Below are positions 2,881 through 38,800 of a stretch of 48,493 nt of DNA, piece by piece. Each line of letters starts with the position of its first letter. Position 1 is the stretch's first letter. The stretch is from sequence record KT367887.1, one strand, 5' to 3'. Under the pieces are notes generated by a model, which had not been told where the DNA came from, ran no database searches, and saw only the letters and a program-made list of their open reading frames with translations. The position numbers and the translations under genes are program-made. This DNA comes from Klebsiella phage vB_Kp3.

Positions 2881-2901
2881 ATAGATTTTGCGCTTATCAT
2901 G

Positions 2902-2935
2902 GCCCCCGTTAACACTCACGGGGGCTTTTCTTTTG
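2902..2935 (+). terminator. Rho-independent terminator (stem GCCCCCGT/ACGGGGGC, T-run) preceded by GCTTATCATGG motif
   Basis: 8-bp GC stem, 8-nt loop, TTTTCTTTTG tail. Confidence 0.75.
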
Positions 2936-11290: not shown

Positions 11291-11312
11291 AATTTCAGGT
11301 GTTAGGTGGTAT
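11291..11312 (+). promoter_or_regulatory. 22-bp element AATTTCAGGTGTTAGGTGGTAT (copy A); 21 nt downstream lies -10 TATAAT (11334-11339), then an imperfect hairpin with T-run (11369-11417) before terS
   Basis: Identical 22-mer found inverted at 28411-28432. Confidence 0.55.
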
Positions 11313-11471
11313 CCCTATTATATATAAAACCCATATAATTACAGAAACACGTACACCCTTACGCACATGGGGGAAGAAAAAAGCGCTACGCAGTGGCTGC
11401 GCGTTTTTATTCTCCCCACCATGCCGTATAGGGGTAAACTGGGGCAGAGCCACTTGAAAGAGGAAACCAAC

Positions 11472-11969
11472 ATGACTGACAAGGTGAAGGTGACGACACC
11501 GCGGAACCCAGTCGGCAGACCAACCAGCTACACCGAGGACATGCCGGAAAAACTCCTTGAATATTTCCGTGTCGACGTTGATGACTATATCCAGCACTCA
11601 CACACGACAGCCGGGAAGAGCAACATTCGCATTAACCCAAAGCACATGCCGTCTATTCTCAACTTCTGCGAGAGCATCGGCATCACGACGACGACTTTTC
11701 ACGACTGGCGTTCGAAGCATAAGCAATTTGCTGTCGCTTACACGCAGGCGCGCGAGCTTTACGAGCAGATGATTCTGAATATTGGCTTCGCCACGAACAG
11801 CACTTTCGCGACCTTCATGCTGAAAGCGAACTTCGGCTACCGCGACAACACTGAGATCGTCGTGACCGGTGACGCCAATAAGCCGGTGCGGTTGAAGATC
11901 GTCAGCGAGCGGCCGAAGGATGAGAAGCCGCGCGAGGAGTCCGAGGCCGTCGACTGGGGTGACGACTAA
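11472..11969 (+). CDS. Terminase small subunit
   Basis: N-terminal PRNPVGRPTSYTEDMPEKLLEYF HTH motif and TFHDWRSKHKQFAVAYTQARE pattern typical of TerS; SD GAGGAAA. Confidence 0.75.
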   Translation: MTDKVKVTTPRNPVGRPTSYTEDMPEKLLEYFRVDVDDYIQHSHTTAGKSNIRINPKHMPSILNFCESIGITTTTFHDWRSKHKQFAVAYTQARELYEQMILNIGFATNSTFATFMLKANFGYRDNTEIVVTGDANKPVRLKIVSERPKDEKPREESEAVDWGDD

Positions 11970-11977
11970 ATACTGCT

Positions 11978-12007
11978 TGACATATATATGACTGCGCAGG
12001 AATATAG
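11978..12007 (+). promoter_or_regulatory. Candidate sigma70 promoter (TTGACA 11978-11983; weak -10 GAATAT/AATATA) followed by GC hairpin 11997-12025
   Basis: Perfect -35 hexamer between terS and next gene. Confidence 0.3.
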
Positions 12008-12046
12008 GGGCCGGGCAATCCTGCCCCTACTGCACAGGACATCAAA

Positions 12047-13645
12047 ATGACTGAATCACTGAAATTCACCTCCCCGGCACCGGCACCAGTTAGCGGCGTT
12101 CTCGCTTGCGCTTCCCGCGAGGTAGGCGCAGAAAACAATCTCAAGCTGGCGCGCGCCATCGTCGTCGAGGTCGCAGACCGTGGTGCTGAGCAGCACGTGA
12201 AAATCAAGGTTGGCACCCTGCTTGCCCTGGCGCTGGGCCTTGAGGGCGTCATGAAGGTTATGGCGTCGCTTGAGGCTGATCGCGACAGCAAGATCAAGGC
12301 GCTCAGCGAGTGGGAGGTGTTCGGCGTCGAAATGCTTGAGCAGAAGTTCAAGTGCCTGCCGGTGGTCAACATGAAGCCGGAAGAGAAGCGTAAGCGCATT
12401 GCCGCTGGCATAGAAACGATCGTGCAGCGCCTGGATGAGCGCTCAGAAGATCTTTCTGTAGCAGCTGGCAACCTGAACGACTGGCGCACGCACACCCGGC
12501 ACGTCCTGGATACCTACTTCGCCACCTACCCTACCAGCAACGCCAACGACCGCAATCTTCGCCTAATCATGACGGCGGCGATCGAAAGCGCACACAACAA
12601 AAACAAGCAGCTGAACAAGGACTATGACGCCATGCGCAACAGCGCCGACGCATCAGACCAGCTTCGGAAGGCCGCAGAGCGTGAGCGGGACGACGTGATC
12701 AACCTCAACCGCAACGCAGCGGAAGAGATCACCCACTTGCAAGAACGCGCCAAACACCTCGATCAAACCATCGTCGACCTGGTGCGCCAGCGCGACAAGA
12801 ACGGGCAGCAGGCTAACCAGCTGGCTAACGAACTGGTCGAGAAACGCAAGGAGATCAGCAAGCTGTTAGAAATCATTGACCGCCTGCACACAGAGATCGC
12901 AGAGAAGCGCGACATCATCGGCGCAGCAACGCAACGCTGCACTGCGCTCACCAATGACGCGAAGGCGATGAGCAAGAATAACAGCGAACTCGCAGCACGC
13001 CTGGCTAACGCTGGTCTGGAGATCGCCAACTATAAGCAGCTCGTGGAAGACCTGAAAGCAGGCACCGCCGTTGACCGTGACACCGTGAAGCGCCAGGCGG
13101 ACACCATTGATCGCCTGTATGGTCAGCTCAATGAGTGGCACGACTGGGCTACAGACGTCATTTGCAGCCCGTCATCACTGGGCGGGGAATCGCAGCGGAC
13201 TGCCATCACCGCAGCTATGCGCAAGCGCAAGGATCGCATTGAGTCACTGGAGCAGATCGTGAAGGATGTCGTTGCACAGCGTGACGCGTGGGTTATTTGG
13301 GCGCGCGGGTACACCAACGCACCGGCAGGCATTCACAGCACTGAACAACTTCTTTCGATGGTGAAGGCAAAGGTGAAGGCGACCGCAGAGGGCATCGACG
13401 GGCCAGCGGAGCACACCATGTGCGGCACACTGAAAGTCACCCAGCTGAAAGGGGATGTCGTTGCCAGCAATGGAAGCTGGGCCATGCTCAAACATGGCAA
13501 CGCGGTGATCGCCGGAAACATTCCCGCCAGCAAGCTGACCCTGGGCGAGGAGATGAAAGAGGCCATTCGCGAAGTCGTCCGGGAGGAGATGAGCAGCGCG
13601 TTAAAGCAAGCCATCAAGAACGAACTTGATAAGCTGACCATGTAA
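12047..13645 (+). CDS. Large coiled-coil protein of unknown function (532 aa) inserted between terS and terL
   Basis: About 200 aa continuous heptad-like helical region (QLNKDYDAMRNS...LYGQLNEWHDW); no recognizable enzymatic motif. Confidence 0.7.
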   Translation: MTESLKFTSPAPAPVSGVLACASREVGAENNLKLARAIVVEVADRGAEQHVKIKVGTLLALALGLEGVMKVMASLEADRDSKIKALSEWEVFGVEMLEQKFKCLPVVNMKPEEKRKRIAAGIETIVQRLDERSEDLSVAAGNLNDWRTHTRHVLDTYFATYPTSNANDRNLRLIMTAAIESAHNKNKQLNKDYDAMRNSADASDQLRKAAERERDDVINLNRNAAEEITHLQERAKHLDQTIVDLVRQRDKNGQQANQLANELVEKRKEISKLLEIIDRLHTEIAEKRDIIGAATQRCTALTNDAKAMSKNNSELAARLANAGLEIANYKQLVEDLKAGTAVDRDTVKRQADTIDRLYGQLNEWHDWATDVICSPSSLGGESQRTAITAAMRKRKDRIESLEQIVKDVVAQRDAWVIWARGYTNAPAGIHSTEQLLSMVKAKVKATAEGIDGPAEHTMCGTLKVTQLKGDVVASNGSWAMLKHGNAVIAGNIPASKLTLGEEMKEAIREVVREEMSSALKQAIKNELDKLTM

Positions 13646-13698
13646 CCCATCAAAATCATTAACCAGCGGCCCACGGCGGGCCGCAATGAGGTGAATCA

Positions 13699-13911
13699 AT
13701 GCAGACCTTCTACCCAGTCTTTAGCGCCATTCTGTGCATGTTTTGCTTTCTCTGCTGCAAAGGGTGGGCGACGGCCCTGGATATCGGAGCCGGGAACGAC
13801 AAGCGCATGATCAGGATGGCTCGCACCTTCGACATCGCTGGCGACGTGTTCCGCTGGGCGTGCTGGCTGTTCATCGTCGCAGGCTTCCTTCGCACCCTCG
13901 GATTGTTCTGA
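13699..13911 (+). CDS. Small membrane protein (70 aa, 2 TM, Cys-rich)
   Basis: SD TGAGGTGA; hydrophobic N- and C-terminal segments. Confidence 0.5.
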   Translation: MQTFYPVFSAILCMFCFLCCKGWATALDIGAGNDKRMIRMARTFDIAGDVFRWACWLFIVAGFLRTLGLF

Positions 13912-13995
13912 TTGCTTACACTTTGTACCATTTGCCCGGTTGATCACCGAAGTGACTGACTGATAGGCTTTAATGAGACTCGCAGCGAGGTGGAA

Positions 13996-14199
13996 ATGAT
14001 GGGGATCGTAATGGGTGTGTGGTTGGCGCTGGTGACAGCTATCGCGATGATCGCAATTCACATGGCCGCAATGGACAGGGAGCGGCTCAAGGTCAACCCG
14101 GTCAGCCAGATCACCAAGCTGGTGCTCGCGGTATTCCTCCTGGTCGGCGTAGCGCACATCGCCACCAGGTACACAGCTTTCCTCCGCGTGCTATCCTGA
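13996..14199 (+). CDS. Small membrane protein (67 aa, 2 TM)
   Basis: SD GAGGTGG; MMGIVMGVWLALVTAIAMIAI...LVLAVFLLVGVAHI. Confidence 0.5.
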   Translation: MMGIVMGVWLALVTAIAMIAIHMAAMDRERLKVNPVSQITKLVLAVFLLVGVAHIATRYTAFLRVLS

Positions 14200-14218
14200 C
14201 CTGACAACTGCTATCATG

Positions 14219-14245
14219 GCCCCGTTAACAAAACGGGGCTTTTTT
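14219..14245 (+). terminator. Rho-independent terminator (GCCCCGTT/AACGGGGC, 6 Ts) preceded by GCTATCATGG motif; T-run abuts terL ATG
   Basis: Near-identical to terminator at 2902-2935. Confidence 0.7.
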
Positions 14246-15607
14246 ATGTCTATCCAATCTGACGCCAGTCAATTCATTGACCTGACACTCACACCACCGC
14301 AGAACGACTTTCTGCAACTGTCGTGCAAACACCCGGCCTTCGTGGCTGGCTTCGGTACAGGCAAGAGTCAGACCATGGCCGTGTCGTCCGTGCTTGACGC
14401 CTCAGAGGGTGGCGCAGATGCCACGATCGCCATCCTTGAGCCAACGTTCGACCTGTGCAAGCTGATCGCCGTGCCGCGTATCGAACAGATCCTCTCTGAG
14501 CTGGGCATTCGCTTTAAGACCGTCGGCAACAAGGAGATCTACACCTCCCACGGCGGGATCGGCGACTTCCTCTTTCGCTCCATGGACAACCCGGCTCGCC
14601 TGGTCGGCTGGGAGGCGTTCCGCATCCACTGCGATGAGATCGACACCCTCAAGAAAGAGGCGGCCAAAGGGGTATGGCGCGCAGCAATCGCCCGCTGCCG
14701 TCAGTCACCGAAGGAGTATGAGCCGTTCGACTTCCTTCCGTCCGACCGCCCGCTGAACAGGGTTAGCGCCTACTGCACGCCCGAGGGGTTCAACTTCCTG
14801 TATGGCCGCTGGGCGAAGGACAAGGAGCGCAGCCGAAAGGCCGGTTATCTCATGATCCAGGCCGCCACCTCATCCAACCCATTCCTGCCTGCCGACTACC
14901 TGGACGCCCTGCGCGCCAGCTACGACCCGCAGCGCTTCGAAGCCTACGCGAAGGGACAATTCGTCAACCTGAAATCGGGCACGGTCTATAAGAACTTTAA
15001 GCGCGAGCTGAATGACACCGACGTGGAGATCATCCCGGGCGAGACGCTGATCGTCGGCCAGGACTTCAACGTTAACAAGATGGCGACCGTCGTCTACGTC
15101 GAGCGCTATGGCGAGGACGGGCTTGCCGAACTGCATGCAGTGGATGAGCGACACAACGGCATCGACACACCGGACGTCATCCGCTGGCTGGTCGAGAAGT
15201 ACCAGAATGCGGGAAATGGCTACATCCACCCGATCGAGGTCTACCCGGATGCGTCAGGCGGCAACACCAGCAGCAAGAACGCCAGCATGTCAGACCTGTC
15301 GATGCTCATGAGCGCAGGGTTCGACGTCTACTGTGGGCAGGCCAACCCTGCCGTGAAGGACAGGGTGATCAGTGCGAACACCCTGTTCTGTAACGCCAGC
15401 GGCCGCCGTCGGCTATTCGTGAGCAGCAAGCGGTGCCCGCAATTCGTCGAATGTCTGGAGCAGCAGATCTACGATGACAAGGGTAAGCCTGACAAGGAGG
15501 CCGGGAAGGATCACATGAACGACGCAGGCACCTACCCGGTGGTCTATAAGTTCCCTGTCGTGCATAATGGCACGATCTCAGCAAATAATATTGAATGGGT
15601 ACGATGA
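14246..15607 (+). CDS. Terminase large subunit
   Basis: Walker A AFVAGFGTGKSQ, Walker B IHCDEID, C-terminal nuclease-like region; start could alternatively be ATG 14216 inside the terminator stem. Confidence 0.82.
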   Translation: MSIQSDASQFIDLTLTPPQNDFLQLSCKHPAFVAGFGTGKSQTMAVSSVLDASEGGADATIAILEPTFDLCKLIAVPRIEQILSELGIRFKTVGNKEIYTSHGGIGDFLFRSMDNPARLVGWEAFRIHCDEIDTLKKEAAKGVWRAAIARCRQSPKEYEPFDFLPSDRPLNRVSAYCTPEGFNFLYGRWAKDKERSRKAGYLMIQAATSSNPFLPADYLDALRASYDPQRFEAYAKGQFVNLKSGTVYKNFKRELNDTDVEIIPGETLIVGQDFNVNKMATVVYVERYGEDGLAELHAVDERHNGIDTPDVIRWLVEKYQNAGNGYIHPIEVYPDASGGNTSSKNASMSDLSMLMSAGFDVYCGQANPAVKDRVISANTLFCNASGRRRLFVSSKRCPQFVECLEQQIYDDKGKPDKEAGKDHMNDAGTYPVVYKFPVVHNGTISANNIEWVR

Positions 15608-17177: not shown

Positions 17178-18292
17178 CATCCGTTAACTCGCGGATGGCG
17201 TCGGAGGCGGTAAGGCACCGCCTCTACCTCTACCGCTACAGCGAAGGCCAGGCGAAGAAGATGACCCAGCTACTGCGCCGAATGGCCGTGGACGTGGTCG
17301 GCCGCCTGCTGTACGCGCTGGACGACTCAAAGATCTCCGCCGACAACTACACGGTGAAGCGTCTTGAGGCCATCAAAGCAGCCATTAACCCGACGATCAA
17401 CCGCATCTACAAAACCACCTACGGCCAGCTCAAAGCCGACCTTGAGGCGCTGAGTAACGGCGAGCTGGCGTACCAGTACCGCACGTGGCGAACGCTCATC
17501 CCTAACCCGGTGCTGGACTTCGTTGGCGGACTGGTGGAGATCCCGGAAACGCAGGTATGGGCAGCGGCGAACAGTCGCCCGTTCCAGGGCATGCTTCTTC
17601 GTGACATCCCGTCAGTGCTGGGCGATGCCATGACCGACTCGATCGGTCGGGCGGTGCAGCAGGGCATTCTACAGGGCGAGACGTATGACCAGATCATTCG
17701 CCGGGTCAAAGGCAGTGCGGCAGCGGCCTACAAAGACGGGGTGATCGGCACCAACGAGCGCCACCTTGCCACCGTCACCCGCAGCGCAGTGTCGCACGTC
17801 GCAGCTGAGGCGCGGGACAAGATCGGCGAGGCTAACGCCCCGCTCATCAAGTCCGAACAGTGGCTATCGACACTGGACAATAAGACGTCGAAGCTGTGCA
17901 TCATCCGCGATCAGCTGCTGTACATGCGGGACAAGAAGCACACGCCGATCGGCCATAGCGTGCCCTACGGCGCTGGCCCCGGGCGGCTGCACATGAACTG
18001 CCGAAGTACATCGACCTTCGTGTTCAAGAGCTGGGAGGAATTGGGCGTTCCGGGAGTCAAGATCAAGGGCGCGTCGCGCGCCAGCATGAACGGACAGGTG
18101 CCGATTTACATGGACTATTCGAGCTGGGTGGAGCGCCAGCCTATGAGCACGTTAACGCAGGTGTTCGGCGTGGAGCGGGCGCAGCTCATCCGCGACGGCA
18201 AGATCTCGCCGCCTGACCTGTTCAACGACAAGGGGGAGTATTTAACACTCTCCCAGCTTCGCGACCTTGACCGTATCCCGGCAGAAGACTAA
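17174..18292 (+). CDS. Head morphogenesis / minor head protein (Mu gpF-like)
   Basis: Position after portal, 372 aa, ATGA overlap with portal. Confidence 0.55.
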   Translation: MTSVNSRMASEAVRHRLYLYRYSEGQAKKMTQLLRRMAVDVVGRLLYALDDSKISADNYTVKRLEAIKAAINPTINRIYKTTYGQLKADLEALSNGELAYQYRTWRTLIPNPVLDFVGGLVEIPETQVWAAANSRPFQGMLLRDIPSVLGDAMTDSIGRAVQQGILQGETYDQIIRRVKGSAAAAYKDGVIGTNERHLATVTRSAVSHVAAEARDKIGEANAPLIKSEQWLSTLDNKTSKLCIIRDQLLYMRDKKHTPIGHSVPYGAGPGRLHMNCRSTSTFVFKSWEELGVPGVKIKGASRASMNGQVPIYMDYSSWVERQPMSTLTQVFGVERAQLIRDGKISPPDLFNDKGEYLTLSQLRDLDRIPAED

Positions 18293-18324
18293 CATCGTGC
18301 CGTTGACAACACAGGAGCTATCAC

Positions 18325-19026
18325 ATGTGGAAATACCTGATTAACAAAGAAGCATTCGACGCCCTCACCCCTGAACAGCAGGCTGCATACAAGGCAGTCG
18401 GTGATTCTGGCAACTATGTGATGAACATCGAAGGCATGCCTGACGTGCAGGCCATGCAGCAGCAGATGGCCGATCTTCAAACCCGCCTGGGCACCATCGA
18501 CGCAGAGAAGGCCGCCGAAGCAGAGAAGGCCCGACAGGCAGCGCTTGACCTGGCGAAGAAGAACGGCGACTTTAAGACCATCGAAGAGGACTATAAGCGC
18601 CAGATCGCCGACCTGAACAGCAAGATCGAGGGCTTCGGCAAGCAGCGCCGCGACGACTTCCTGAACGCGCAGATCGACAAGCTGGCCGCAGAGCTGGGTG
18701 GCAAGGAGTATGCCGCGCTGTTCAAACCGGCGTTGCAGCAGCGCCTGTCTGTCGAGGGTGGTGAAGATGGCTCCGACTTCATCCCTCGCGTGCTGAAAGA
18801 CGGCAAGCCGTCGGCGATGTCACTGAACGACCTGATCGGCGAGTTCCGAGCAGACCCAACTTACAAGCCGGTGTGCGTAGCGCCTGCATCCTCTGGCACC
18901 GGCCGCCATCAGGCACCGACCCCGACGCCTTCTGCTTCCGACAAGCTGCCGAGTTTTGAAGATGTACGCGGTAAGCAGCTGAGCCGCGCAGAACAGATCG
19001 CGGCAAGTATCAGCGACGCAGAGTAA
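18325..19026 (+). CDS. Scaffolding protein
   Basis: 233-aa highly helical, charged/coiled-coil ORF directly upstream of capsid gene. Confidence 0.55.
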   Translation: MWKYLINKEAFDALTPEQQAAYKAVGDSGNYVMNIEGMPDVQAMQQQMADLQTRLGTIDAEKAAEAEKARQAALDLAKKNGDFKTIEEDYKRQIADLNSKIEGFGKQRRDDFLNAQIDKLAAELGGKEYAALFKPALQQRLSVEGGEDGSDFIPRVLKDGKPSAMSLNDLIGEFRADPTYKPVCVAPASSGTGRHQAPTPTPSASDKLPSFEDVRGKQLSRAEQIAASISDAE

Positions 19027-19121
19027 GTAAGTACAGGCCCGGCAATGCCGGGCTTTTTCTTGCTTGTCCAGTAGTTGCCGGTTATCATCCAGACGTTTAA
19101 TAACTCAAAGGACATCGCGCG

Positions 19122-20231: not shown

Positions 20232-20250
20232 GCGAAGAAGTGAATAACAT

Positions 20251-20273
20251 GGGGGCCGATTGGCCCCCTTTTC
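20251..20273 (+). terminator. Rho-independent terminator (GGGGGCC-GATT-GGCCCCC + TTTT)
   Basis: After capsid gene. Confidence 0.75.
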
Positions 20274-20286
20274 ATTGGAGCAAAAT

Positions 20287-22927: not shown

Positions 22928-22943
22928 AGCGTGCTATCATCAT

Positions 22944-22964
22944 GGCGGCTTAGGCCGCCTTTTT
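22944..22964 (+). terminator. Rho-independent terminator (GGCGGC-TTAG-GCCGCC + TTTTT) preceded by GCTATCATCATGG
   Basis: After major tail gene. Confidence 0.65.
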
Positions 22965-22983
22965 CATATCTGGAGACAAGACA

Positions 22984-29236: not shown

Positions 29237-29820
29237 GCACCATCCGACTGTACGGCGAAATGGGGGCGCGCTTCGGGCGCGTCCATCACCTCGCGGTCGA
29301 CTCCTGCGCCGAAGCAATCAGCGCCCTTTCCGCCATCATCCCCGGATTCGATCAATACATGCGAGACAGCCAGTCTCGCGGCCTGACCTTCGCCCCTTTC
29401 ATCGGAAAGCGGAACATCGGCTTCAATGAGATGTCGCAGCCAATCCCTGACGGCGAAGAATTCCGCATTGCCCCGATCATCATCGGCAACAAGAAGGGCG
29501 GCCTGTTCCAGACCATCCTGGGCGCTGCGATGATTGTCGCGGGCGTCGTGGCGTCGTTCATCCCCGGCGGGCAGGCTGTCTCCCCTTACCTCGTTGCTGC
29601 TGGTATCTCCACGGCTGCTGGCGGGGTTATGCAGATGCTTTCCCCGCAGGCGACAGGCATGAAGATCCGGGAGAATGACGCCAACGCGCCGTCATACGCC
29701 TTCGGCCAGCCGGTTAACACGACAGCACAAGGTAACATCGTTGGCGTTTTGTATGGCGAGCGTGAGATCGGGGGTGCTATCATCAGCGCCGGAATTATCG
29801 CTAACGAGGTACGTTCTTAA
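29221..29820 (+). CDS. Tail tip assembly protein I
   Basis: N-terminus resembles lambda gpI (LYGEMGARFGRVHHLAVDSCAEAISALSAIIPGF). Confidence 0.7.
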   Translation: MGNQLSTIRLYGEMGARFGRVHHLAVDSCAEAISALSAIIPGFDQYMRDSQSRGLTFAPFIGKRNIGFNEMSQPIPDGEEFRIAPIIIGNKKGGLFQTILGAAMIVAGVVASFIPGGQAVSPYLVAAGISTAAGGVMQMLSPQATGMKIRENDANAPSYAFGQPVNTTAQGNIVGVLYGEREIGGAIISAGIIANEVRS

Positions 29821-32800
29821 TGGAAATCAAAGGATACAAGGGCGGGAGTAGCAACGTGCATACCCCCGTTGAAGATCCAGACTCCCTGATCAGCAACGCA
29901 ACGGTAAGGATGCTCCTGGCGTTGTCAGAGGGTGAAACCGTGCCGATTAGCGCGGAAGACCTGCCCAAGCGCGTTTACATGGACGGGACGCCCGTTCAGA
30001 ACGATGATGGGTCGGTAAACATTCCGGGCGTAACACTGGAATATCGCAACGGCACCCCGCAGCAGGAGCCGATCAACGGCTTCCCGGCGGTGGAAAGTGA
30101 AACACGAATCAATGTGGAGCTGAAAAAGTCTTCTGCATGGGTGCGTAACATCACCAACACCGAGATCGACGCCGTCCGCATCCGAATGAATTTCCGGCTG
30201 GTCATCCAGCAGAAGGACGGGGATCGCGTAGGCGGACGCATTGAGTACCGGATTGAATACCGCAAAGTCGGCGACAGCACCTACACCGTGGCCTTCAATG
30301 GTGCTGTCGACGGCAAGCAGAAAGACAACTATGAACGCGATCACCGCATCGACCTGCCGAAGAGCAGCACTGGCTGGCAAATCCGCGTGACCCGCCTAAC
30401 TGACGACAGCACGTCTGATACCACCGTGCTCAACTCCGGGATCGTGGCTGTCACCGAGATCGTCGACGCCCGCGTTCGTTACCCGTGGACGTCCCTTCTG
30501 TTCGTCAGCTTCGACGCCAAATCGTTCCAGAACATCCCGAAAATCAGCATCAAGATGGGCGGCCGTCTGGTACTGGTTCCGTCCAACTATGACCCTGTTA
30601 ACCACACCTACAGCGGGTCGTGGAACGGGACATTTAAACAGGCGTGGACGGATAACCCGGCGTGGATCGTCTACGACATCATTCTGCACAAGCGCTTCGG
30701 TATTGGCCGCCGTATCCCGTCCTCATTCCTGAACAAATGGACGATGTACAGCATCGCACAGCGCTGCGATGAGCTGGTGACGAACGCCGACGGCACGCAG
30801 AATCGCCGTTACACCTGTAACGTGTATATCCAGAAACGCGCGCATGCGTGGAGCGTCATTCGTGACCTGGCGTCGATCTTTAACGGAATGGTCAGCTACA
30901 GCAACATGCAGCTTCAATTTGCGCAGGATGCACCGGCAGAAGTCCGCCATGTTGTGACAAACGACGACGTCGTGAACGGAACGTTCGAGTATTCCTACGG
31001 CAGCATGGCTAACCGCCGCGGGATCGCGATGGTCACTTTTGACGACCCGAAGGCGCACTATAAGACGCAGACCACTGTGGCGCAGATCAAAGACCTCGTG
31101 GAGCGTTATGGCGTTGAGCCGCTGGAAGTGTCCGGCATCGGCTGCACGGACGAATACGAAGCGCAACGTCGTGGCCTGTGGGCGCTGCTGTCGAACACCA
31201 ACGACATGCAGATCAGCTACCGCGTCGGCCTGAACGGCATCAAGTACCTGATCGGCGACGTCGTCGGCATCGCTAACCGCTACGTGCAGGGCGGTCAGTT
31301 CGGCGGGCGTGTTGCTGGCGTATCCGGCACCACCATCACCACCGACCGCATGATCTCCGACCACGTGGCAATCGGCGACAGAGTGATCGTTCGTCAAGCT
31401 GGATCGGATGGAACCTACAACCGCGTGATCAATGCAATCGCGGCTGACCGGATGTCCTTCACCGTCGACGGCACTAACCTTGATATTCAGAGCGGTGAAG
31501 TGTTCCTGCTGGATACTAAGGTGCTGGCACCTGAACTAATCCGCATCACCAAGATCACCTACAACGAGCAGGACAATAATTTCACCGTTACCGGTCTGCA
31601 ATACAGCCACTCGAAGTATTTGCAGGTTGACACCGGCGCGCGAATTGAAGACCGCCCGACATCGCTGATCCCGACCGGGCAGGTACAGGCACCCGCTAAC
31701 GTGGTGGCCGAAGGCTACAGTATCGTTAACCAGGGGATTCGCTCAGCTAACGTAAACTGTTCATGGTTCACCGTAGATCAGGCCGTCAGCTACGACATTC
31801 AGGTGCGCCGAACCTCTCAGTCAAACGGCCAGTGGTCACAGGGGTGGACTAACCTTGCCAGCCAGTCAAGCACGTCCGTTGACCTGACAAACGTTCTGAC
31901 CGGCACCTATCAGTTCCGCGTTCGTTCCGTATCCCGTGACGGCGGTTCGTCTCAGTGGGTCGAGTCGAATCAGGTGTTCGTTGACGGCAAGCGTGGCAGC
32001 ATCCCGGCAGTAGCTGGCCTGAACGGCGTAGGCATCGTTAACGGCATTACCTGGCGTTGGGTGACTGGCACGGATGATCTGATCGATATGAAGTCGACAG
32101 AGCTACAGTTCCAGCGCATTGACGGCAATGGTGCTCCGGTTGGTGATTGGATCGATCTCAGCGTCGTGACCTACCCTACCGGGACGTTCACACAGTCCGG
32201 CCTGAAATTTGCCGAACGCGTGCAGGTGCGCGCCCGCTTTGTGTCGTCATATAGCGATGCTGGCGAGTGGAGCGCCCCGGTCATGGCGATGACGTCCGAC
32301 AACATGGACGACTATTACCAGAACATCGACGACGCGATCAAAGGCTCCGACACCTACGGCGAACTTACCAGCGGCATCAAAGACGTAAGCGACAGCGCAC
32401 AGGCAGCGAAAGACGCCGCGCAGGCCGCGCAGGTTACTGCTGACGGAGCAGTGACAACCAACCAGCAGCAGCAGCAGCAGCTGAACAACCAGCTGGCCGA
32501 GATCCAGAAGAACGCGCAGGACATCACCAACACCGCTAACGCGGGGGCGGCAAACGCCAGTGCAATCGCTCAGGAGATCCTTGATCGCAAGGCTGGCGAC
32601 ATCGCGAACGCCAACAAGGCAGCTCAGGACGTGGCCGACGCTATCGCGAAGGCTGAGACGGATGACGCACAGGTGGCAGCTGACGCAGCGGCCAACCTGC
32701 TGACAGCGAAGAACGAAGTAGAAGCGCAGATCAGCACCACCAATACCACAATGCAGGACGGCTTCGACAGCCTGGCGCAGCAGATGGCATCCATTTCCGC

Positions 32801-35800
32801 TGGCACCGGCGAGCAGTTCGACAGCCTCGCTATCTGGTACTTCGACAACGGCCCGGAAGGGTGGGCTTCTGACGACGCCAACACCAATCTGCTCCCCGTA
32901 GACCAAGATGGCTGGATTTACCCTGCTGGCGCAGCATCCACCATGCGCTCACCTAACCCGCTGGCAATCGACGCGCGCAGCTATAAGTACATGCGCCTGC
33001 GCATGAAGCGAGTCGGGAACCCGTCATGGTCTGGCAGGCTGTATTGGATCGGCGTGGATGAGACTGGCTGGACAAGTGGCCGCTCAATTGCCATTCCGGC
33101 ACCTGACTTTGACCCGGCCACCGGGATCACTGTCCTGTCGATCCCCGATCTTCTGTGGGCGACATCCGGCACCGTGCGCCGCCTGCGCTTTGACTTCTCA
33201 AACAATCAGGACGCCAATAACTACTACGCCGTCGACTGGATGGCAGTAGGACGACCGACCCCGGGCGCGTCACAGGCACAGGTTCAGGATCTTCGCACCG
33301 CCATGACCGCGGCGGACTCAGCCGAAGCCGCAGCGCGCAACACACTGGCCGTTCAGCTCCGCGGGAACTATGAGGGAACCGACCCTTCCAAGCTGGTGAC
33401 TGGCATCATCTTCAACGAGCGCCAGACCCGCGTCACCGCAGAGCAGGCGATCGCCAGCGACGTCAACACCCTGCGCACTGACTACAACGCGAACAAGGCC
33501 GCCGTGACCCAGCGTCTCGACACGCTGACCAGCGAGAACCAATCGCAGGCGCAAGCGCTTACCCAGCTTCAAAGCGGTCTGACTGACGCTAACGGAAAGA
33601 TCGGCGCTAACGCTACAGCCATCAGCCAGATCAAAACAGACGTGACGGCGCTGGATGGTCGAGTATCGGCAAATAGCGGTCTGATCACTAACCTGCGCAG
33701 TGACCTGAATAACATGCGCGTCGGCGGCACCAACCTGATCCCTAACTCTGGCACGCTAGCAGGCGTCAGCGGCGTTGTGCAGGGTCAGACGTACAAAGGC
33801 AATGCTATCCGTCGCATCGCGATTGCAGCAGCCTCAGCCGGCTCCTACGACCAATTTGAGTATGAGCTTGCGGCTCCGATCGACGGAACCGAAGTAGTCG
33901 TCAGCTTCTACGCGAAAGCGAACAACGCCGACAGCAAGCAAATTTTCGTCTACCTGTACAACCCGAACGCCACGCTTACGGCTTTAAGTAGTCAGGGTAA
34001 AACTGGTAGCTGGGCTACTGGTGGCGATGGTTCGATGACAATCGACCTTACGGAAGACTGGGCGCGCTACTGGGTGAAATACACTCGTAAAAGCGGACAA
34101 ACTGGAAGCACCCGGGTCATCTTAGGCCGACTGCTGAAAGGGTCTAAGGACAAAGAGGTTTACATCAGCTCGCCTAAATTCGAATACGGCACCATGCCTA
34201 CCGAATGGAGCGAAGCACCGGCTGACAATGCCAGCGCAAGCGCGTTGCAGGCACTGACCACGCGTGTCACTGCGGCGGAAGGCACCATCAGCACCAACAG
34301 CCAGGCGATCACCCAGCTCAAAGGCGACGTGAGCACCTTACAGGGTCAGGTGGCTACCAAGGCCGAAGCGAGCGCATTGCAGCAGCTGGCGACTACTGTC
34401 ACCCAGCAGGGGAACACCATCTCTTCGCAGGGTCAGGCCATCACCGACTTGCAGAACACCGCGCAGAACGGTAAAGCGAACTACTGGCTGACCAAGATCT
34501 TCGATATCAAAGGGGGCGGTAGCGGGTACATTCCTAAGCTGTCCGACCTGTCTGGCGTTCCTCCGCTGGCCGTGTCCGAGATGGCTGACGCTGCAAAGCT
34601 GGACTTCCTGACTTACGGCGACTACAAAATCGCGTATGCGAAGGCGCTGGTGTATGTCGCGGCTGACAAGACAATCGCTATCACCCCCGGCTCCCGCATC
34701 GTGGACGACACCGGCCGACTGTATGTCAATGGGGTGGAAACGGCATCCTTTGGCGCCAGCACTGGCAACTACAGCCTGTCGCTAAAAAAAGGCTGGAACA
34801 CGCTTGAGTTCGTGGTTGCGCAGATCACCGGTCAGTTCTATATCAACTTTGGACTCAAGCTGTCCGATAACGTCGATCAGATGTTCAGTGGTGCCGGTCA
34901 GCTGGCCGCTGCATCCGCCTCGCAGGTGCTCTCCTCTCAGGTTGAGCAGACCTCCGGGAAGGTTGACGCGAACAGTGCCGCGATCGTCACTCTGAACAAC
35001 TCGGTGAGGGACATCAACACCGCGCTGAACAACAAGGCTGACGCGAGCGCGTTGCAGTCGCTGACTACCCGTGTCACCACCGCAGAAGGGAAGATCACGG
35101 CTCAGGGCAATGCAATTACCCAGCTCACCAGCGACCTGTCGACAGCGAACGGGAAGATCTCCGCTAACTCAACGGCGATCAATAACCTGACGACCCGGGT
35201 CAGCGCAGCCGAAGGGAAGATTGACTCACAGGCTGAGTCCATCACCTCGATCAACTCATCTATCAAGGGCGTACTGACCCAAGCGGCCAACCTTATCCCT
35301 AACCCGACGGTAGACCCGGCCTATTCGCAAATGGGCATGACCGTTGTTTCCACAACGTCAGAAGGCGTTCCGGCTGGATGCCCTTACCCGTGGGCGATTA
35401 AATGCCAGTACCGCGATCACGTCCCGGGTATGAACAACATCCCTTGTCGCGAAGGTCAGGTGTTTGAGTTCTCTGTACTGGCCGCATGCGGCACCGGCTC
35501 CGCACCGTTCCAGCACTACATCGGTACGTCGACTCTGGTTTCTGGCAGCATCGGGTCGCCACAAGCGAACGGAGGCCAAATCTCAGCGGCTACCGGCGCG
35601 CAGTGGACGCGCACTACATGGCGCTGGACAGTAAACGCGGAGCATGGGGCGAAGGGTTACTTCCGTCCATTCCTGCAAATCGCGCAGGCAGGCCCGGGCT
35701 ACGGGACAGTATGGTATGCAACTGACTGGAGCGTTCGCGACGTCACCGCAGCGGCGAAGGCAGAAGGCAAGGCAGACGCCAACGCCACGGCGATCAGTCA

Positions 35801-38800
35801 GCTGACAACCCGCGTTACTTCTGCGGAAGGGTCGATCACGTCTCAGGGTCAGGCCATTACCAAACTGACCAGCGATCTGAGTACGCTGACCGGCGTCGTG
35901 AACAATAAGGCTGACGCTTCGGCGCTGAATGCGCTCACTACCCGCGTATCGACTGCCGAAGGCAAGATCGATTCACAGGGTCAGTCGATCACCCAGCTGA
36001 GCAATAGCCTGTCCGCAACTGACGCCTCAATCGACGCGCAGGGCAAGATCCCCGGGAACCTGCTGGCTAACTCATCGTTTGAGCGCGGCCCGGTTAACTT
36101 CACCGGCTGGAGCAGCCTTGCCACCATCATCACGGCAACACAGCCGCATTCTGGCACCAAAATTGTCAAGATGGCGGCAGGCGGAAGTGCTGGAATCAGT
36201 CAGGCCGTTGAAATCACGCAGGGCCGCCGGTATCGCTTCGGCGTGTTTGCCAAACAGGACGCCGGGACTACCATCAACGATCCGGGTAACACGAAATTCC
36301 GTATCGCTGAGGAATCAGGCAGTCTTCTTGTCGGCACGAATTACGGCCCGTTCACTGGCACATGGCAGCACGTCTTCATGGACTGGACGGCTACGAAGAC
36401 CACCACCGCGCTGTTCCAGCTGACTACATGGCTGAGCGCTGGCGCGATGTACTTCGACGATGTCTACGTTGTCGACATCACCAACGACACCAAGATTCAG
36501 GCGAACGCTGACGCGATCACCTCGCTGAACACGAAAGTGACCCAGCAGGGTAACGACATCACGTCGCAGGGTAGCGCGATCACCCAGCTGACCAACCGCG
36601 TGCGCACTGAGCAGTACAGCAACAGCAACCCGTGGGTAGATGGCTCGTTCGAGTCGTATGACAACCAGCAAGCCATCGGTGGATCTAATGGCCTGGTCAC
36701 TACTGACTTCTCATTCAGTGGTCAGAAGTCGCTTATGTGTCGCCGCGCCAACGGTGAAACCGGCAACTCTGACAAGACTTTAGGGTATGAAACAGCCATT
36801 CGCGAGTCTGCGGTTTACCGCTTCGAATGCTGGGCGATGATGCCGGAAGATGAGACGCCGCCGGAAGGGTGGAACTGTGTTGTGGGCTTGATGGTTCGCA
36901 CCGCAGCCAACCAGAACGCATGGCCTAGCGCATTCGTCATCACAGAGTCAGGGCTTGCTGCTGGTGGCGGTCGTGGTAAGTGGGTCAAGTTCTCCGGCAA
37001 AGTAGGCGTAGGCGGCGGACAGAAGACACGAGGCCGTCTGTGGATCTCCACTCGCGGCACATCCGGCGGCCCTGGATATAGCATCTATATCGACGATCTG
37101 GTGATCACCGACGTTACCGACGCTCATGCAGCACAGACCACCGCAGACGCTAACTCAAGCGCGATCAACAGCCTGACCAGCCGTGTGAGCACCGCAGAAG
37201 GGCAGATCACATCTCAGGCAGACGCGATCACCAAGCTGAACGGTGACGTTAGCACCATCAACGGCACGCTGAGCCAGAAGGCTGACGCCAGCGCAGTCAC
37301 CGCACTGCAAACGCGCGTGACCACCGCAGAAGGCCAAATCGCGAGCAATGGCACGGCCATCACCAACCTGAATAACGGCCTGGAAGCACAGCGACGCACC
37401 GGTGAAAACCTCGTGCAGAACTATGACTTCATGCAAGGCGACACCGCATTCAGCGTGCAGCGGGATAGTTTCAGCACAGTAACGTTCGGCGACTACGGAG
37501 ATGGCAAGCCAGGCGTGCGCATGGTGAAAGTCAACGCCACATCGCCCGGCCTGTTCGCGAACAACAAAAAGCCGGTGCCGCAGAACGGCCAGCGCCGCTA
37601 TCGCTATGTTGTGCGCGCGAAGTCCGTAAGCGGTGGGAATAACCTTCTTATGCGTCGCTGGAATTTCAACGGCTCCGTAGAAGGCTCTTATACAGACAGG
37701 AACAACGCGCTTACAACTGACTGGCAGACCCTGACGTGGGAAACCGATCTCACCCCGGCAAGCGGATTTGACGGTTCAGCGTTCGGCCTGTATTGCCACC
37801 CGTCTAACGCGGAAGTGTGGATCGACTCGTTCAAGGTGTACGACATCACCGAAGAGCTGACGATCAAGGCTAACAGCGCGGCGATCAACAGCCTGACCAC
37901 CACCGTCACCCAGCAGGGCCAGGACATCACCGCGCAGTCGAACGCGCTCACGCAGCTGAAATCCAGCCTGACTAATGACGCGGTAGCGCTGGCAGCGAAC
38001 CCGGATAACATGCTGACGAACACCGGCTTCGAGCGTGGAACGGACAACTGGGTAGGATGGAGTTCACGCGCCGACGTCTACGCAGCACAAGAACCGAAGT
38101 CAGGCGCAATGATCCTGCGTGGTAAATCCGGCGGTAACGCGTCAATCGGTCAGAATGTTCTGAGCGTGAAAGCTGGCCGCACCTACCGGTTCGGCGGATA
38201 TGTGAAACGCACAGCTGATATGGCGATCGGCCCAAACACCGTAGGGAACAACAAATTCCGCCTTGGTAACGCGACCACCGGCGCTGGCCCTATTTCTGAG
38301 CTGAACTTCTCAGAAGCGAATATCGGCACTAGCTGGACGCTGATCACTAAGGACTTTGTCCCGACGTCTGATATTGACGTTGCCTATTCGATCAACTGGA
38401 ACCTTGCTACCGGTGAGATCTACTTTGATGACGTGTTCTTTATCGACGTCACCGACGAGATCAATAACGCGGCCAATGCTACAGCCATCAGCAACTTGAC
38501 CACCCGAGTTACTACGGCAGAGGGCAAAATCACGTCGCAGGGAACGGCGATCACTCAGCTGACCGCAGACCTCAGCACCGCGAACGGGAAGATCACGGCG
38601 AACTCCAACGCGATCACCAGCCTGCAATCGACTGTCACCCAGCAGGGCAATACGCTGACCTCTCAGGGCCAGGCGATTACCAAGCTGAATAGCGACCTGT
38701 CTGACCTGTCTGGCGTGGTGGACACGAAGGCCAGCGCTTCGGCACTGAATTCCCTGACTACCCGCGTCACCAATGCGGAAGGCAAGATCACCGCGAACAG

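What the first reader, a model, noticed from the sequence alone, without database searches (positions are those of the whole stretch)
11978..14245. Self-contained moron between terS and terL: promoter, 532-aa coiled-coil protein, two tiny membrane proteins, terminator
terS and terL are normally adjacent. Here 2.3 kb is inserted between them. It contains a perfect -35 TTGACA (11978-11983), then a 532-aa protein with an unknown N-terminal domain, a roughly 200-aa coiled coil and a C-terminal domain. Two SD-preceded ORFs follow, encoding 70- and 67-aa double-TM peptides. A strong terminator (14219-14245) directly abuts the terL start codon. This layout is that of an independently transcribed accessory cassette. 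Cassettes like this are often expressed from a prophage and frequently encode superinfection-exclusion, abortive-infection or other defence functions. Alternatively it could be a novel packaging or DNA-end-protecting accessory given its location. None of the three proteins shows a motif I can recognise, so this is a strong candidate for an undescribed system.
Basis: partly seen in the sequence, partly recalled or inferred. Interest (0 to 1): 0.75.

Follow-up and report, generated by a model that had tools for sequence, protein, structure and literature searches.

The report
Dispensable hypervariable cassette between terminase genes
A virulent Klebsiella phage carries, between its two DNA-packaging genes, a separately punctuated three-gene cassette (a fast-evolving coiled-coil protein and two tiny membrane proteins) that related phages repeatedly lose, so it is an optional host- or competitor-interaction module of unknown function, not packaging machinery.

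Summary
TTGACA lies at 11977-11982. The -10 (GAATAT, 12000-12005) is weak, but both hexamers are conserved in distant relatives. ORF532, a 70-aa and a 67-aa two-TM ORF, and a hairpin plus T-run abutting the terL ATG (14246) are all present.

The window is the whole genome of a virulent, unclassified Klebsiella siphophage (vB_Kp3/HSE3 group). No homologue was found in 185,579 bacterial and archaeal genomes, so "prophage-expressed moron" is not supported.

terS and terL are adjacent in outgroups, and in this clade the junction is an accessory hot spot. ORF532 is an orphan:
- It has no Pfam, PHROG, PADLOC, NCBIfam, PDB or fold match, only coiled-coil noise.
- It is 31-49% identical where terL is 96-99% identical.
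- Its dN/dS is about ten times that of terL, and it is mosaic.
- It is deleted or broken in several independent relatives (Holland_MM2, HSE3, a metagenomic genome, MUC-5), twice together with ORF70.

It is therefore dispensable and not a core packaging or structural protein.

The "terminator" is one of four copies of a composite "-10-like hexamer + hairpin + T-run" element that punctuates the late genes.

Best reading: a separately transcribed conflict or accessory module. A dispensable virion fibre is the main rival. Function is unresolved.

The parts
11472..11969 (+). terS (left boundary). The real start is probably ATG 11472 with a strong Shine-Dalgarno sequence, not ATG 11367. It belongs to the same recombination block as the cassette.
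   Evidence: PF16677 GP3_package, E 2.7e-11; phrog_3064 terminase, E 4.6e-48. In HBM00 terS is 84% identical while the flanking primase is 98% and terL 99%.
11977..12005 (+). Predicted sigma70-type promoter: -35 TTGACA (11977-11982), 17-nt spacer, -10 GAATAT (12000-12005), preceded by AAATAC.
   Evidence: The sequence is. Both hexamers are conserved in all relatives, including ATCEA85 and K70PH128C1, while the spacers differ. The style matches the promoters of the early regions. The generic scanner did not call it. No transcript data exist.
12005..12029 (+). GC-rich hairpin directly after the -10. It has no T-run in this phage, but in HJK1/PMBT64/EKq1-type relatives the equivalent hairpin is followed by T5.
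   Evidence: Fold of 11995-12050: -19.9 kcal/mol, z = -2.4. The HJK1 version: -18.6 kcal/mol, z = -3.3.
12047..13645 (+). ORF532, an orphan, mostly alpha-helical coiled-coil protein. It has a conserved N-terminal domain of about 60 aa, a mosaic shaft of variable length, and a mosaic C-terminal region (two helical blocks, a variable non-helical stretch at residues 447-500, and a terminal helix).
   Evidence: ORF and translation. Alignment A1. AF2 model, pLDDT 57, long helix 165-339. Only sub-threshold hits of coiled-coil or chance type in the family libraries, and nothing significant in the PDB sequence, fold or profile searches. It is 31-49% identical where terL is 96-99%. dN/dS is 0.27-0.47. 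35 combinations of segment types occur in 62 sequences.
13699..13911 (+). ORF70, a 70-aa protein with two hydrophobic segments. It is variable (51-100% identity) and was lost or truncated together with ORF532 in two independent deletions.
   Evidence: Hydropathy. tblastn finds it only in the 30 phages of this cluster. Holland_MM2 and HSE3 deletions. dN/dS is 0.26-0.39 in diverged pairs.
13996..14199 (+). ORF67 (listed as a 69-aa GTG ORF), a two-TM protein. It is the conserved member of the trio and is retained in all deletion variants.
   Evidence: Hydropathy. It is 83-99% identical in all 31 cluster phages, including Holland_MM2 and HSE3. dN/dS is 0.03-0.16 in diverged pairs. Small TM ORFs occupy the same position in K70PH128C1, ATCEA85 and Serratia Smarc2.
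14209..14217 (+). Conserved TGCTATCAT, which resembles an extended -10 (TGn + TATCAT), directly abutting the hairpin.
   Evidence: It is conserved as TATCAT, TAGAAT or TAGCAT, always directly before the hairpin, in ATCEA85, K70PH128C1, KW1E_UTAR and Ymer. Three further copies of the hexamer + hairpin + T-run occur in the window at 2895, 20245 and 22935.
14218..14245 (+). Intrinsic-terminator-like hairpin (9-bp stem, 5-nt loop) plus T6. Its 3' arm holds the only Shine-Dalgarno-like sequence of terL (GGGG, 14235-14238).
   Evidence: -17.4 kcal/mol, z = -3.1. Compensatory changes in relatives.
14246..15607 (+). terL (right boundary). The start is ATG 14246.
   Evidence: Terminase_6N and Terminase_6C domains; phrog_2. 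The upstream ATG at 14216 is out of frame with this ATG in ATCEA85 and HJK1-type relatives.

Best explanation
The segment is a lineage-specific, non-essential accessory cassette lodged in a recombination and cargo hot spot between terS and terL of a virulent Klebsiella siphophage.

Inferred steps:
- Host RNA polymerase transcribes it from its own sigma70-type promoter (11977-12005), independently of the late morphogenesis genes.
- Transcripts that come from upstream stop at the hairpin and T-run at 14218-14245.
- terL and the genes after it are expressed from a restart or antitermination element that overlaps that hairpin.

Shown steps:
- ORF532 is a long, largely alpha-helical protein with a conserved N-terminal domain of about 60 aa and a mosaic, rapidly diversifying shaft and C-terminal region.
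- ORF70 is a small protein with two hydrophobic segments that varies with ORF532 and is deleted with it.
- ORF67 is a conserved small protein with two hydrophobic segments that is always retained.

Proposed mechanism (inference, not shown): ORF532 acts inside the infected cell as an elongated oligomeric adaptor or sensor. Its conserved N-terminus would dock onto a constant partner, possibly the membrane protein ORF70. Its variable C-terminal modules would engage a variable target of the host or of competing phages. This would be a conflict function: counter-defence, or exclusion of superinfecting phages at the inner membrane. Such a function pays only in some hosts and is easily lost elsewhere. 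It is not part of the packaging motor or of the essential virion.
For: Separate punctuation:
- The promoter hexamers are conserved across relatives whose ORF532 is barely alignable, and they match the style of the early promoters.
- The hairpin and T-run are conserved with compensatory changes.

Hot spot:
- terS and terL are adjacent in outgroups.
- Serratia Smarc2 has only a 50-aa TM ORF between them.
- Pectobacterium phage Ymer has six unrelated small ORFs.
- K70PH128C1 has two additional soluble ORFs.
- ATCEA85 has a 612-aa homologue and a four-TM protein.

Dispensability:
- Holland_MM2 lacks window 12103-13922, that is ORF532 from codon 19 onward and all of ORF70.
- HSE3 lacks most of ORF532 and the first 16 codons of ORF70.
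- Metagenomic genome L021 has ORF532 reduced to 55-aa and 68-aa fragments.
- MUC-5 has GAG changed to TAG at codon 286.
- Further short N-terminal products of 55-136 aa are called on phage contigs of up to about 48 kb, consistent with truncated alleles.

Fast but constrained evolution:
- ORF532 is 31-49% identical where terL is 96-99%.
- dN/dS is 0.27-0.47 against 0.02-0.04 for terL.
- Intragenic module shuffling is evident.

Other points:
- No prophage copies were found.
- ORF70 is the next most variable gene and is co-deleted.
- Six phages isolated on the same strain, ATCC 700603, carry alleles 31-94% identical to the window's, so the allele does not track the isolation host as a primary receptor-binding protein would.
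Against: - No transcript, protein or phenotype data exist.
- The -10 is weak, and a generic scanner does not call the promoter.
- In this phage the hairpin after the promoter has no T-run, so terS transcripts may read into the cassette and it may also be expressed late.
- ORF532 has no TM segment, signal peptide or recognisable enzymatic or binding domain.
- Nothing links it physically to ORF70 except co-variation and co-deletion, which physical linkage alone could produce.
- A conserved N-terminus, a variable coiled-coil shaft and a mosaic C-terminus are also the anatomy of phage fibres. Frequent loss in culture is typical of dispensable fibres too.
- No hit to any known anti-defence or exclusion family.
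Confidence: 0.45

Rival explanations
1. ORF532 is a dispensable virion appendage: a head fibre, neck whisker or side fibre. The conserved N-terminus would attach to the particle, the coiled coil would be the shaft, and the mosaic C-terminal region would bind variable surface structures. The gene would be lost in culture much as other non-essential fibres are (own knowledge: lambda stf, T4 hoc/wac, phi29 gp8.5).
For: - The architecture fits: a conserved 60-aa N-terminus, a proline-free helix of about 200 aa whose length varies by block indels, and a shuffled C-terminal region with a non-helical variable stretch.
- The gene sits in the morphogenesis block on the late strand.
- It is repeatedly lost in isolates.
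- There is a weak, non-significant resemblance of KVTQLKGDVVASNG to the AITQLxxDLSTxxG repeats of the 3358-aa central fibre (E 0.2-1.2).
Against: - It has its own consensus -35 promoter of the early type.
- It is followed by, and co-deleted with, membrane proteins rather than a soluble fibre chaperone.
- There is no hit to any fibre family in Pfam or PHROGs.
- Electron microscopy of relative PMBT64 reported no appendages (PMC13435897).
- Phages isolated on one host strain carry alleles 31-94% identical to the window's.
- One deletion variant comes from an uncultured metagenome, so loss is not only a laboratory effect.
Confidence: 0.25
2. The cassette is a packaging accessory. ORF532 and/or the membrane proteins would assist terminase, for example in pac recognition, DNA-end protection, or tethering packaging to the membrane.
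For: - It lies between terS and terL.
- terS belongs to the same swapped block as ORF532 and ORF70.
- A small TM ORF directly upstream of terL is kept across the clade, even in Serratia Smarc2 and in all deletion variants.
Against: - ORF532 and ORF70 are deleted or broken in several plaque-forming relatives.
- Outgroups package DNA with adjacent terS and terL and no such genes.
- ORF532 varies enormously while terL is 96-99% identical.
- At most ORF67 could play such a role.
Confidence: 0.07
3. The cassette is a classical moron: a recently acquired foreign cassette expressed from a prophage to benefit the lysogen.
For: It has the promoter-gene-terminator layout and lies between genes that are adjacent in outgroups.
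Against: - The phage group is virulent (PMC10793312; PMC13435897).
- All homologues lie on contigs of about 48 kb, and none was found in 185,579 genomes.
- Composition is identical to the rest of the genome.
- The family is present across the whole clade, including distant members.
Confidence: 0.03
4. ORF532 is a decaying gene without current function, and its variability is simply relaxed constraint.
For: dN/dS is about ten times that of terL, and many alleles are truncated.
Against: - dN/dS stays well below 1, at 0.27-0.47.
- Most of about 60 alleles are intact at 480-590 aa.
- The N-terminal and C-terminal motifs are conserved at the protein level even in ATCEA85 and K70PH128C1, where terL is only 78-85% identical.
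Confidence: 0.08

Closest known systems
Morons of lambdoid and HK97-like phages, in the sense of Hendrix and colleagues (own knowledge)
   Same: Extra genes with their own promoter and terminator sit between two genes that are adjacent in related phages. They are non-essential for lytic growth.
   Different: The host phage here is virulent and has no prophage state. Composition is not foreign. The cassette is old within the lineage and hypervariable rather than a recent single acquisition. Its terminator is shared phage punctuation.
T4 Imm and Sp, small inner-membrane superinfection-exclusion proteins of a virulent phage (own knowledge)
   Same: They are small membrane proteins encoded by a virulent phage, dispensable, and presumably made from host-type promoters. 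ORF70 and ORF67 have the same size class and two hydrophobic segments.
   Different: There is no sequence similarity to any PHROG or Pfam family. The cassette here includes a 532-aa cytoplasmic coiled-coil protein that has no counterpart in Imm/Sp.
Lambda RexA/RexB-type two-component exclusion, with a cytoplasmic component and a membrane component (own knowledge)
   Same: A soluble protein is paired with a small membrane protein in one operon, is dispensable for the phage, and has a conflict function.
   Different: There is no homology. Rex is expressed from a prophage. ORF70 has two hydrophobic segments, not four.
Dispensable phage fibres: T4 fibritin (wac), lambda Stf, phi29 head fibre gp8.5 (own knowledge)
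   Same: They have an N-terminal anchor, an alpha-helical coiled-coil shaft whose length varies by block indels, and a variable C-terminus. They are non-essential and often lost on laboratory hosts.
   Different: No fibre family hit was found, and there is no evidence of virion association. ORF532 has an early-type promoter and membrane-protein neighbours.
SMC/MukB/JetC-like proteins and methyl-accepting chemotaxis proteins, the names given to homologues in some GenBank records
   Same: They share long coiled-coil composition, which produces weak hits (TIGR02168 at 25.8 bits, JetC at 18 bits).
   Different: The scores are far below the cut-offs (567 bits for TIGR02168). There are no ATPase head domains and no MCP signalling domain. 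These annotations are composition artefacts.

Membership tests
Moron (accessory cassette between adjacent conserved phage genes) | It lies between two genes that are adjacent in related phages. | tested here: met
   terS and terL annotations overlap or abut in Jerseyvirus, Kagunavirus and other outgroups. Serratia Smarc2 has terS, a 50-aa ORF and terL with overlapping ends.
Moron (accessory cassette between adjacent conserved phage genes) | It has its own promoter and its own terminator. | tested here: inconclusive
   The sequence elements are present and phylogenetically conserved, but no transcript data exist. The -10 is weak. The terminator belongs to a four-copy family of phage punctuation elements.
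Moron (accessory cassette between adjacent conserved phage genes) | It is expressed from a repressed prophage for the benefit of the lysogen. | tested here: not met
   The lineage is virulent and carries no integrase (PMC10793312; PMC13435897). No copy was found in 185,579 bacterial and archaeal genomes. All homologues lie on contigs of about 48 kb.
Moron (accessory cassette between adjacent conserved phage genes) | Its nucleotide composition differs from that of the surrounding genome. | tested here: not met
   The cassette has GC 0.573 against 0.571 for the genome. GC3 is 0.73-0.81, like terL at 0.78.
Terminase or packaging accessory protein | It is required for DNA packaging and conserved together with the terminase. 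| tested here: not met
   Viable relatives lack ORF532 and ORF70. ORF532 is 31-49% identical where terL is 96-99%. This remains untested for ORF67, which is always retained.
SMC/JetC/Rad50-like coiled-coil ATPases, and methyl-accepting chemotaxis proteins (GenBank names of homologues) | ATPase head domains or an MCP signalling domain, scoring above the family cut-off. | tested here: not met
   The best hits are TIGR02168 at 25.8 bits (cut-off 567) and JetC at 18 bits, covering the coiled-coil stretch only. There is no MCPsignal hit in Pfam.
Phage fibre, whisker or decoration protein | Homology to a known fibre family, or a recognisable fibre fold. | tested here: not met
   There are no Pfam or PHROG fibre hits. 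The AF2 models have low confidence (pLDDT 57 and 50). Foldseek against the PDB found nothing with E < 0.001. Resemblance to the central-fibre repeat is not significant.
Phage fibre, whisker or decoration protein | The protein is present in purified virions. | not testable with these tools
   No proteomic data were found for this phage group in the papers searched.
Small-membrane-protein superinfection exclusion (T4 Imm/Sp-like) | A small inner-membrane protein, expressed early, that blocks entry of superinfecting DNA. | tested here: inconclusive
   Size and two hydrophobic segments are met, and the promoter is of the early type. There is no homology to any family. The function cannot be tested here.
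Class II holin or pinholin | A two-TM protein of about 70 aa, encoded next to the endolysin and spanin genes. | tested here: not met
   Topology and size fit, but the lysis cassette lies elsewhere (holin at about 2972, lysin up to 4261). There is no holin PHROG hit.
Known anti-phage defence proteins (PADLOC) | A significant match to a defence-system HMM. | tested here: not met
   Only coiled-coil noise was found: JetC, PbeC and LmuB at E 1e-4 to 1e-2 and at most 18.6 bits.

The most novel reading that the evidence does not exclude
ORF532 and ORF70 form a previously undescribed two-component conflict system of a virulent phage. A mosaic cytoplasmic coiled-coil adaptor or sensor would use interchangeable C-terminal modules to recognise variable host-defence or rival-phage components. 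It would be coupled to a small inner-membrane partner. The pair would be expressed from an early host-type promoter and insulated from the late operon by a compact overlapping terminator/promoter element, which is itself an undescribed type of late-gene punctuation.
Probability: 0.25. Interest if true: 0.7.

Novelty: new variant of a known kind. Interest (0 to 1): 0.45.

Why it matters
These 48-kb siphophages are being collected worldwide as therapy candidates against Klebsiella. Every intact member carries this unannotated or misannotated cassette. If it is a counter-defence or exclusion module, it would influence host range, cocktail compatibility (mutual exclusion between cocktail members) and genome stability during production.

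Nature has already provided deletion variants (Holland_MM2, HSE3) alongside intact relatives from the same isolation host, which makes the question directly testable.

The orphan coiled-coil family, with its shuffled modules, is also a clean case for studying how phage accessory genes diversify by intragenic recombination. The four-copy "-10-like hexamer + hairpin + T-run" element may reveal how late transcription is organised in a phage group with no known late regulator.

Tried and rejected
- **Family libraries.** Pfam, PHROGs, NCBIfam and PADLOC scans of the three proteins and of the equivalents in ATCEA85, K70PH128C1 and Ymer gave only coiled-coil or other sub-threshold noise.
- **Solved structures by sequence.** Profiles of the N- and C-terminal domains against all PDB sequences gave nothing, or only a GCN4/M-protein coiled coil at E 0.2.
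- **Remote homologues.** The C-terminal profile searched against 1.84 billion representative proteins found only the family itself, plus fragments and one spurious Ig-repeat protein. The N-terminal profile searched against 5.8 billion proteins found only truncated alleles of the same gene.
- **Structure prediction.** AlphaFold2 on the full length (pLDDT 57) and on the C-terminal domain (pLDDT 50) gave no confident tertiary fold. Foldseek against the PDB with the full model gave no match with E < 0.001. I ran no further search on low-confidence models.
- **Lipoprotein idea.** I considered a lipoprotein signal peptide because of the invariant L19/C21 (VLAC). I rejected it because there is no hydrophobic h-region and some alleles have Asp at -1 (LLDC).
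- **TM segment in ORF532.** I considered residues 55-75 and rejected them, because the hydrophobicity is borderline and not conserved.
- **Similarity to other proteins of the same phage.** Only a non-significant resemblance to a repeat of the giant central fibre was found.
- **RNA families.** Rfam gave no match anywhere in the window.
- **Literature.** I found no functional, transcriptomic or proteomic data on this gene in papers on HSE3, EKq1, PMBT64, the phiKp series or K34PH164.
- **IMG/VR scan.** It yielded only four loci.
- **dN/dS against MUC-5.** I discarded this pair because of the in-frame stop.


Full report
**What the window is.** The 48,493-bp window is a complete, circularly permuted genome of a Klebsiella siphophage. 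Megablast of 11300-14300 finds 31 Klebsiella phages of about 48 kb, at up to 96-97% identity (phiKp_14, vB_KpnS-MUC-5, vB_Kp3 and others). The fully annotated relative MUC-5 has:
- a rightward morphogenesis block: terS, terL, portal, MuF-like protein, scaffold, capsid, tail genes, and a 3358-aa central fibre;
- leftward and rightward replication and recombination blocks;
- a lysis cassette;
- no integrase.

Published relatives are described or predicted as lytic and are unclassified (PMC10793312, PMC7232175, PMC13435897, PMC10581060).

**The observation.** The listed features are all present.
- TTGACA is at 11977-11982. After 17 nt comes GAATAT (12000-12005).
- ORF532 is 12047-13645, with AGGA 7 nt upstream of the ATG.
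- ORF70 is 13699-13911.
- The third ORF most plausibly starts at ATG 13996 (67 aa), because GTG 13990 lies inside its Shine-Dalgarno sequence.
- Both small proteins have two hydrophobic segments.
- The hairpin at 14218-14240 plus T6 folds at -17.4 kcal/mol with z = -3.1. The next triplet, 14246, is the terL ATG.
- The in-frame ATG at 14216 that several GenBank records use is out of frame with the downstream ATG in ATCEA85 and in the HJK1, PMBT64, VLCpiS8c and EKq1 type (31 nt instead of 30). The real terL start is therefore 14246.
- terS (PF16677, phrog_3064) and terL (Terminase_6N and 6C) are confirmed.

**Is the promoter more than chance?** A bare TTGACA is not: 18 copies occur on both strands, with about 17 expected. 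The generic scanner rejects the site because the -10 matches only 3 of 6 positions. Conservation argues otherwise.
- In all relatives the blocks AAATACTGCTTGACA and GAATAT(A/G)GGG are kept while the spacer changes completely.
- The arrangement recurs in ATCEA85 (TTGACA-16-AATAAT) and in K70PH128C1 (TTGACT-18-GAATAT). In those phages terL is only 85% and 78% identical and the ORF532 homologue is barely alignable.
- It is one of only six TTGACA sites in the genome that have a properly spaced A2/T6 -10. The other five (6781-, 9046-, 10996-, 44229-, 47834+) sit in front of replication, recombination and other early gene clusters, and two of them share the upstream AAATA.

I therefore treat it as a probable host-type, early-style promoter. 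There are no transcript data.

**Is the 2.3 kb an insertion?** Relative to the outgroups, yes.
- In Jerseyvirus, Kagunavirus and other phages with 35-50% identical terL, the terS and terL annotations overlap or abut.
- Serratia phage Smarc2 (terL 65%, terS 45% identical) has only an overlapping 50-aa two-TM ORF between them.
- Pectobacterium phage Ymer (terS 53%) has six unrelated small ORFs.
- K70PH128C1 has a 390-aa homologue, two soluble ORFs and a 66-aa two-TM ORF.
- ATCEA85 has a 612-aa homologue and a four-TM protein.

The terS-terL junction is thus a cargo hot spot in this clade. The cassette is not recent. Its GC (0.573) and GC3 match the genome, and the ORF532 family spans the whole clade.

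**ORF532 is an orphan.**
- It has no match in Pfam, PHROGs, NCBIfam or PADLOC beyond sub-threshold hits of coiled-coil or chance type. Examples are SMC at 25.8 bits against a cut-off of 567, and JetC, PbeC and tape-measure hits.
- N- and C-terminal profiles find nothing in PDB sequences.
- The C-terminal profile finds only the family itself among 1.84 billion representative proteins.
- The N-terminal profile finds only truncated alleles of the same gene among 5.8 billion proteins.
- All 64 homologues lie on phage-sized contigs, and none was found in 185,579 bacterial and archaeal genomes.
- AlphaFold2 gives a nearly all-helical, low-confidence model (pLDDT 57). It has one helix spanning residues 165-339 and an unmodelled stretch at 447-500. 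The C-terminal domain alone is no better (pLDDT 50).
- Foldseek finds nothing.
- The GenBank names given to homologues ("methyl-accepting chemotaxis protein I", "chromosome partition protein") are composition artefacts.

**How ORF532 evolves.** Alignment of 22 homologues shows three regions:
- a conserved N-terminal domain of about 60 aa (MT..L.FTS.A.APV...LAC ... QHVKIKVGTL);
- a shaft whose length varies by block insertions and deletions;
- a C-terminal region with conserved Trp-rich helices, a variable non-helical stretch, and a terminal helix.

The N- and C-terminal motifs are recognisable even in ATCEA85 and K70PH128C1.

Where terL is 96-99% and the primase 86-98% identical, ORF532 is 31-49%, ORF70 51-83%, ORF67 83-94% and terS 84% identical. 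Pairwise dN/dS is 0.27-0.47 for ORF532, against 0.02-0.04 for terL. ORF532 therefore evolves fast but is still constrained.

When the protein is cut into seven segments, 62 sequences give 35 combinations of segment types. Many pairs of segments show all four type combinations, which indicates intragenic recombination, especially among the C-terminal modules.

**The cassette is dispensable.**
- Holland_MM2 has a clean deletion of window 12103-13922. It removes ORF532 from codon 19 onward and all of ORF70, and keeps the promoter, ORF67 and the hairpin.
- HSE3 independently lost most of ORF532 and the first 16 codons of ORF70.
- An uncultured IMG/VR genome (L021) has ORF532 reduced to 55-aa and 68-aa fragments, with ORF70 and ORF67 intact.
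- MUC-5 has GAG changed to TAG at codon 286.
- Haden_MM8 aligns in two pieces.
- Further short N-terminal products of 55-136 aa are called on phage contigs of up to about 48 kb, consistent with truncated alleles.

ORF67 is present in all 31 cluster phages. An essential packaging or structural role for ORF532 and ORF70 is therefore excluded. ORF67 may be different.

**The "terminator".** The hairpin before terL is directly preceded by a conserved TGCTATCAT. The hexamer keeps the T1, A2, A5 and T6 positions of a sigma70 -10 in relatives: TATCAT, TAGAAT, TAGCAT. It always abuts the hairpin, and the hairpin arms change with compensation.

Three more copies of "TA(T/A)CAT + 0-3 nt + GC hairpin + T-run" lie on the late strand:
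- 2895, upstream of the holin;
- 20245, between the capsid and connector genes;
- 22935, between the major tail and chaperone genes.

ATCEA85 keeps at least two of them. The ORF532 promoter has the same layout, with GAATAT followed by a hairpin. In HJK1-type phages that hairpin is followed by T5. The ORF532 promoter additionally has a consensus -35.

My inference is that these are compact terminator/restart units. Transcripts from upstream would end at the T-run. A transcript that starts about 7 nt after the hexamer would begin inside the 5' arm, so it would lack the hairpin. At terL it would also have the Shine-Dalgarno-like GGGG (14235-14238) free. This is untested. It means the hairpin is phage-wide punctuation that also closes the cassette, not a private moron terminator.

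**Interpretation.** These facts fit an optional module whose value depends on host or competitors:
- separate early-type promoter;
- insulation from the late operon;
- hot-spot location;
- orphan status;
- rapid mosaic evolution;
- frequent loss;
- co-variation and co-deletion of ORF532 with a small membrane protein;
- absence from prophages.

I favour an intracellular conflict function, either counter-defence or exclusion acting at the inner membrane. In this reading the conserved N-terminus of ORF532 docks to a constant partner and the shuffled C-terminal modules recognise a variable target (confidence 0.45 for the general statement; the specific mechanism is inferred).

The main rival is a dispensable virion fibre or whisker (0.25), because the anatomy and the tendency to be lost fit equally well. 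Against that rival:
- the early-type promoter;
- the membrane-protein neighbours;
- the lack of any fibre homology;
- electron microscopy of PMBT64 without visible appendages (PMC13435897);
- alleles 31-94% identical to the window's among six phages isolated on the same strain, ATCC 700603.

The remaining readings rate lower. A packaging accessory (0.07) could only apply to ORF67. A prophage moron (0.03) is contradicted by the lifestyle and by the absence of genomic copies. A functionless decaying gene (0.08) is contradicted by dN/dS below 1 and by motif conservation across the clade.

**Verdict.** The cassette is a new variant of a known kind: a moron-like accessory cassette, but in a virulent phage, old within its lineage, hypervariable, and bounded by shared phage punctuation. 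It encodes an orphan protein family of unknown function. Interest is moderate (0.45). Natural deletion variants from the same isolation host make the decisive experiments easy.

Noticed in passing
window 2895-2930, 14212-14245, 20245-20275, 22935-22970 (+ strand): There are four copies of a composite element: a -10-like hexamer TA(T/A)CAT, 0-3 nt, a GC-rich hairpin and a T-run. They lie upstream of the holin, terL, the head-tail connector genes and the tail chaperone genes. The hexamer positions T1, A2, A5 and T6 and the hairpin (with compensatory changes) are conserved in ATCEA85, K70PH128C1, KW1E_UTAR and Ymer. They may be overlapping terminator/late-promoter restart units. No Rfam family matches.
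   Followed up: partly
window 13996-14199; L014 2404-2604; L016 652-804; L006 6257-6691: A small membrane protein sits immediately upstream of terL across the whole clade. It is a 67-aa two-TM protein here, 66 aa in K70PH128C1, 50 aa in Serratia Smarc2 (where it is the only gene between terS and terL), and a 144-aa four-TM protein in ATCEA85. It survives every natural deletion. It may be older than, and functionally separate from, ORF532 and ORF70.
   Followed up: partly
window 11300-11471: The leader of terS has a perfect TATAAT (11334-11339) without a recognisable -35. About 50 nt downstream is a small hairpin plus T-run (11389-11410), flanked by an A-run. The 200-aa ORF starting at 11367, which many GenBank records use as genome position 1, probably overextends terS. 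ATG 11472 has a strong Shine-Dalgarno sequence. A promoter followed by an early terminator before the first packaging gene suggests antitermination-type control.
   Followed up: no
window 11472-14199 versus L008 (HBM00): In HBM00 the flanking primase (98%) and terL (99%) are almost identical to the window, but terS (84%), ORF532 (49%), ORF70 (83%) and ORF67 (94%) are not. The exchanged recombination block therefore includes terS, and terS alleles travel with ORF532 alleles.
   Followed up: partly
window 29820-39896: The central fibre, or tip attachment protein, is 3358 aa long. Its distal half carries at least eight copies of an AIT(Q/K)Lxx(D)LSTxxG repeat. ORF532 residues 463-476 (KVTQLKGDVVASNG) resemble one unit, but not significantly (E 0.2-1.2).
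   Followed up: partly
L017 2451-4715 (Pectobacterium phage Ymer): The terL of Ymer is 754 aa long. It has a weak intein-splicing-domain hit (PF14890, E 7e-5, below the cut-off) inserted ahead of the Terminase_6N domain.
   Followed up: no
GenBank records of relatives: Several misannotations were seen. ORF532 homologues are named "methyl-accepting chemotaxis protein I" or "chromosome partition protein". An out-of-frame ORF overlapping ORF70 and ORF67 is named "DUF1799 domain-containing protein" in HJK1. terL is named "membrane-bound lytic murein transglycosylase F" in P85_2.
   Followed up: no
window 18267-18295: A second promoter-like site lies inside the late block (TTGACC-17-TAACAT, 9 of 12 matches), directly upstream of the scaffold gene at 18325. 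An intrinsic-terminator-like hairpin follows that gene at 19035-19055.
   Followed up: no
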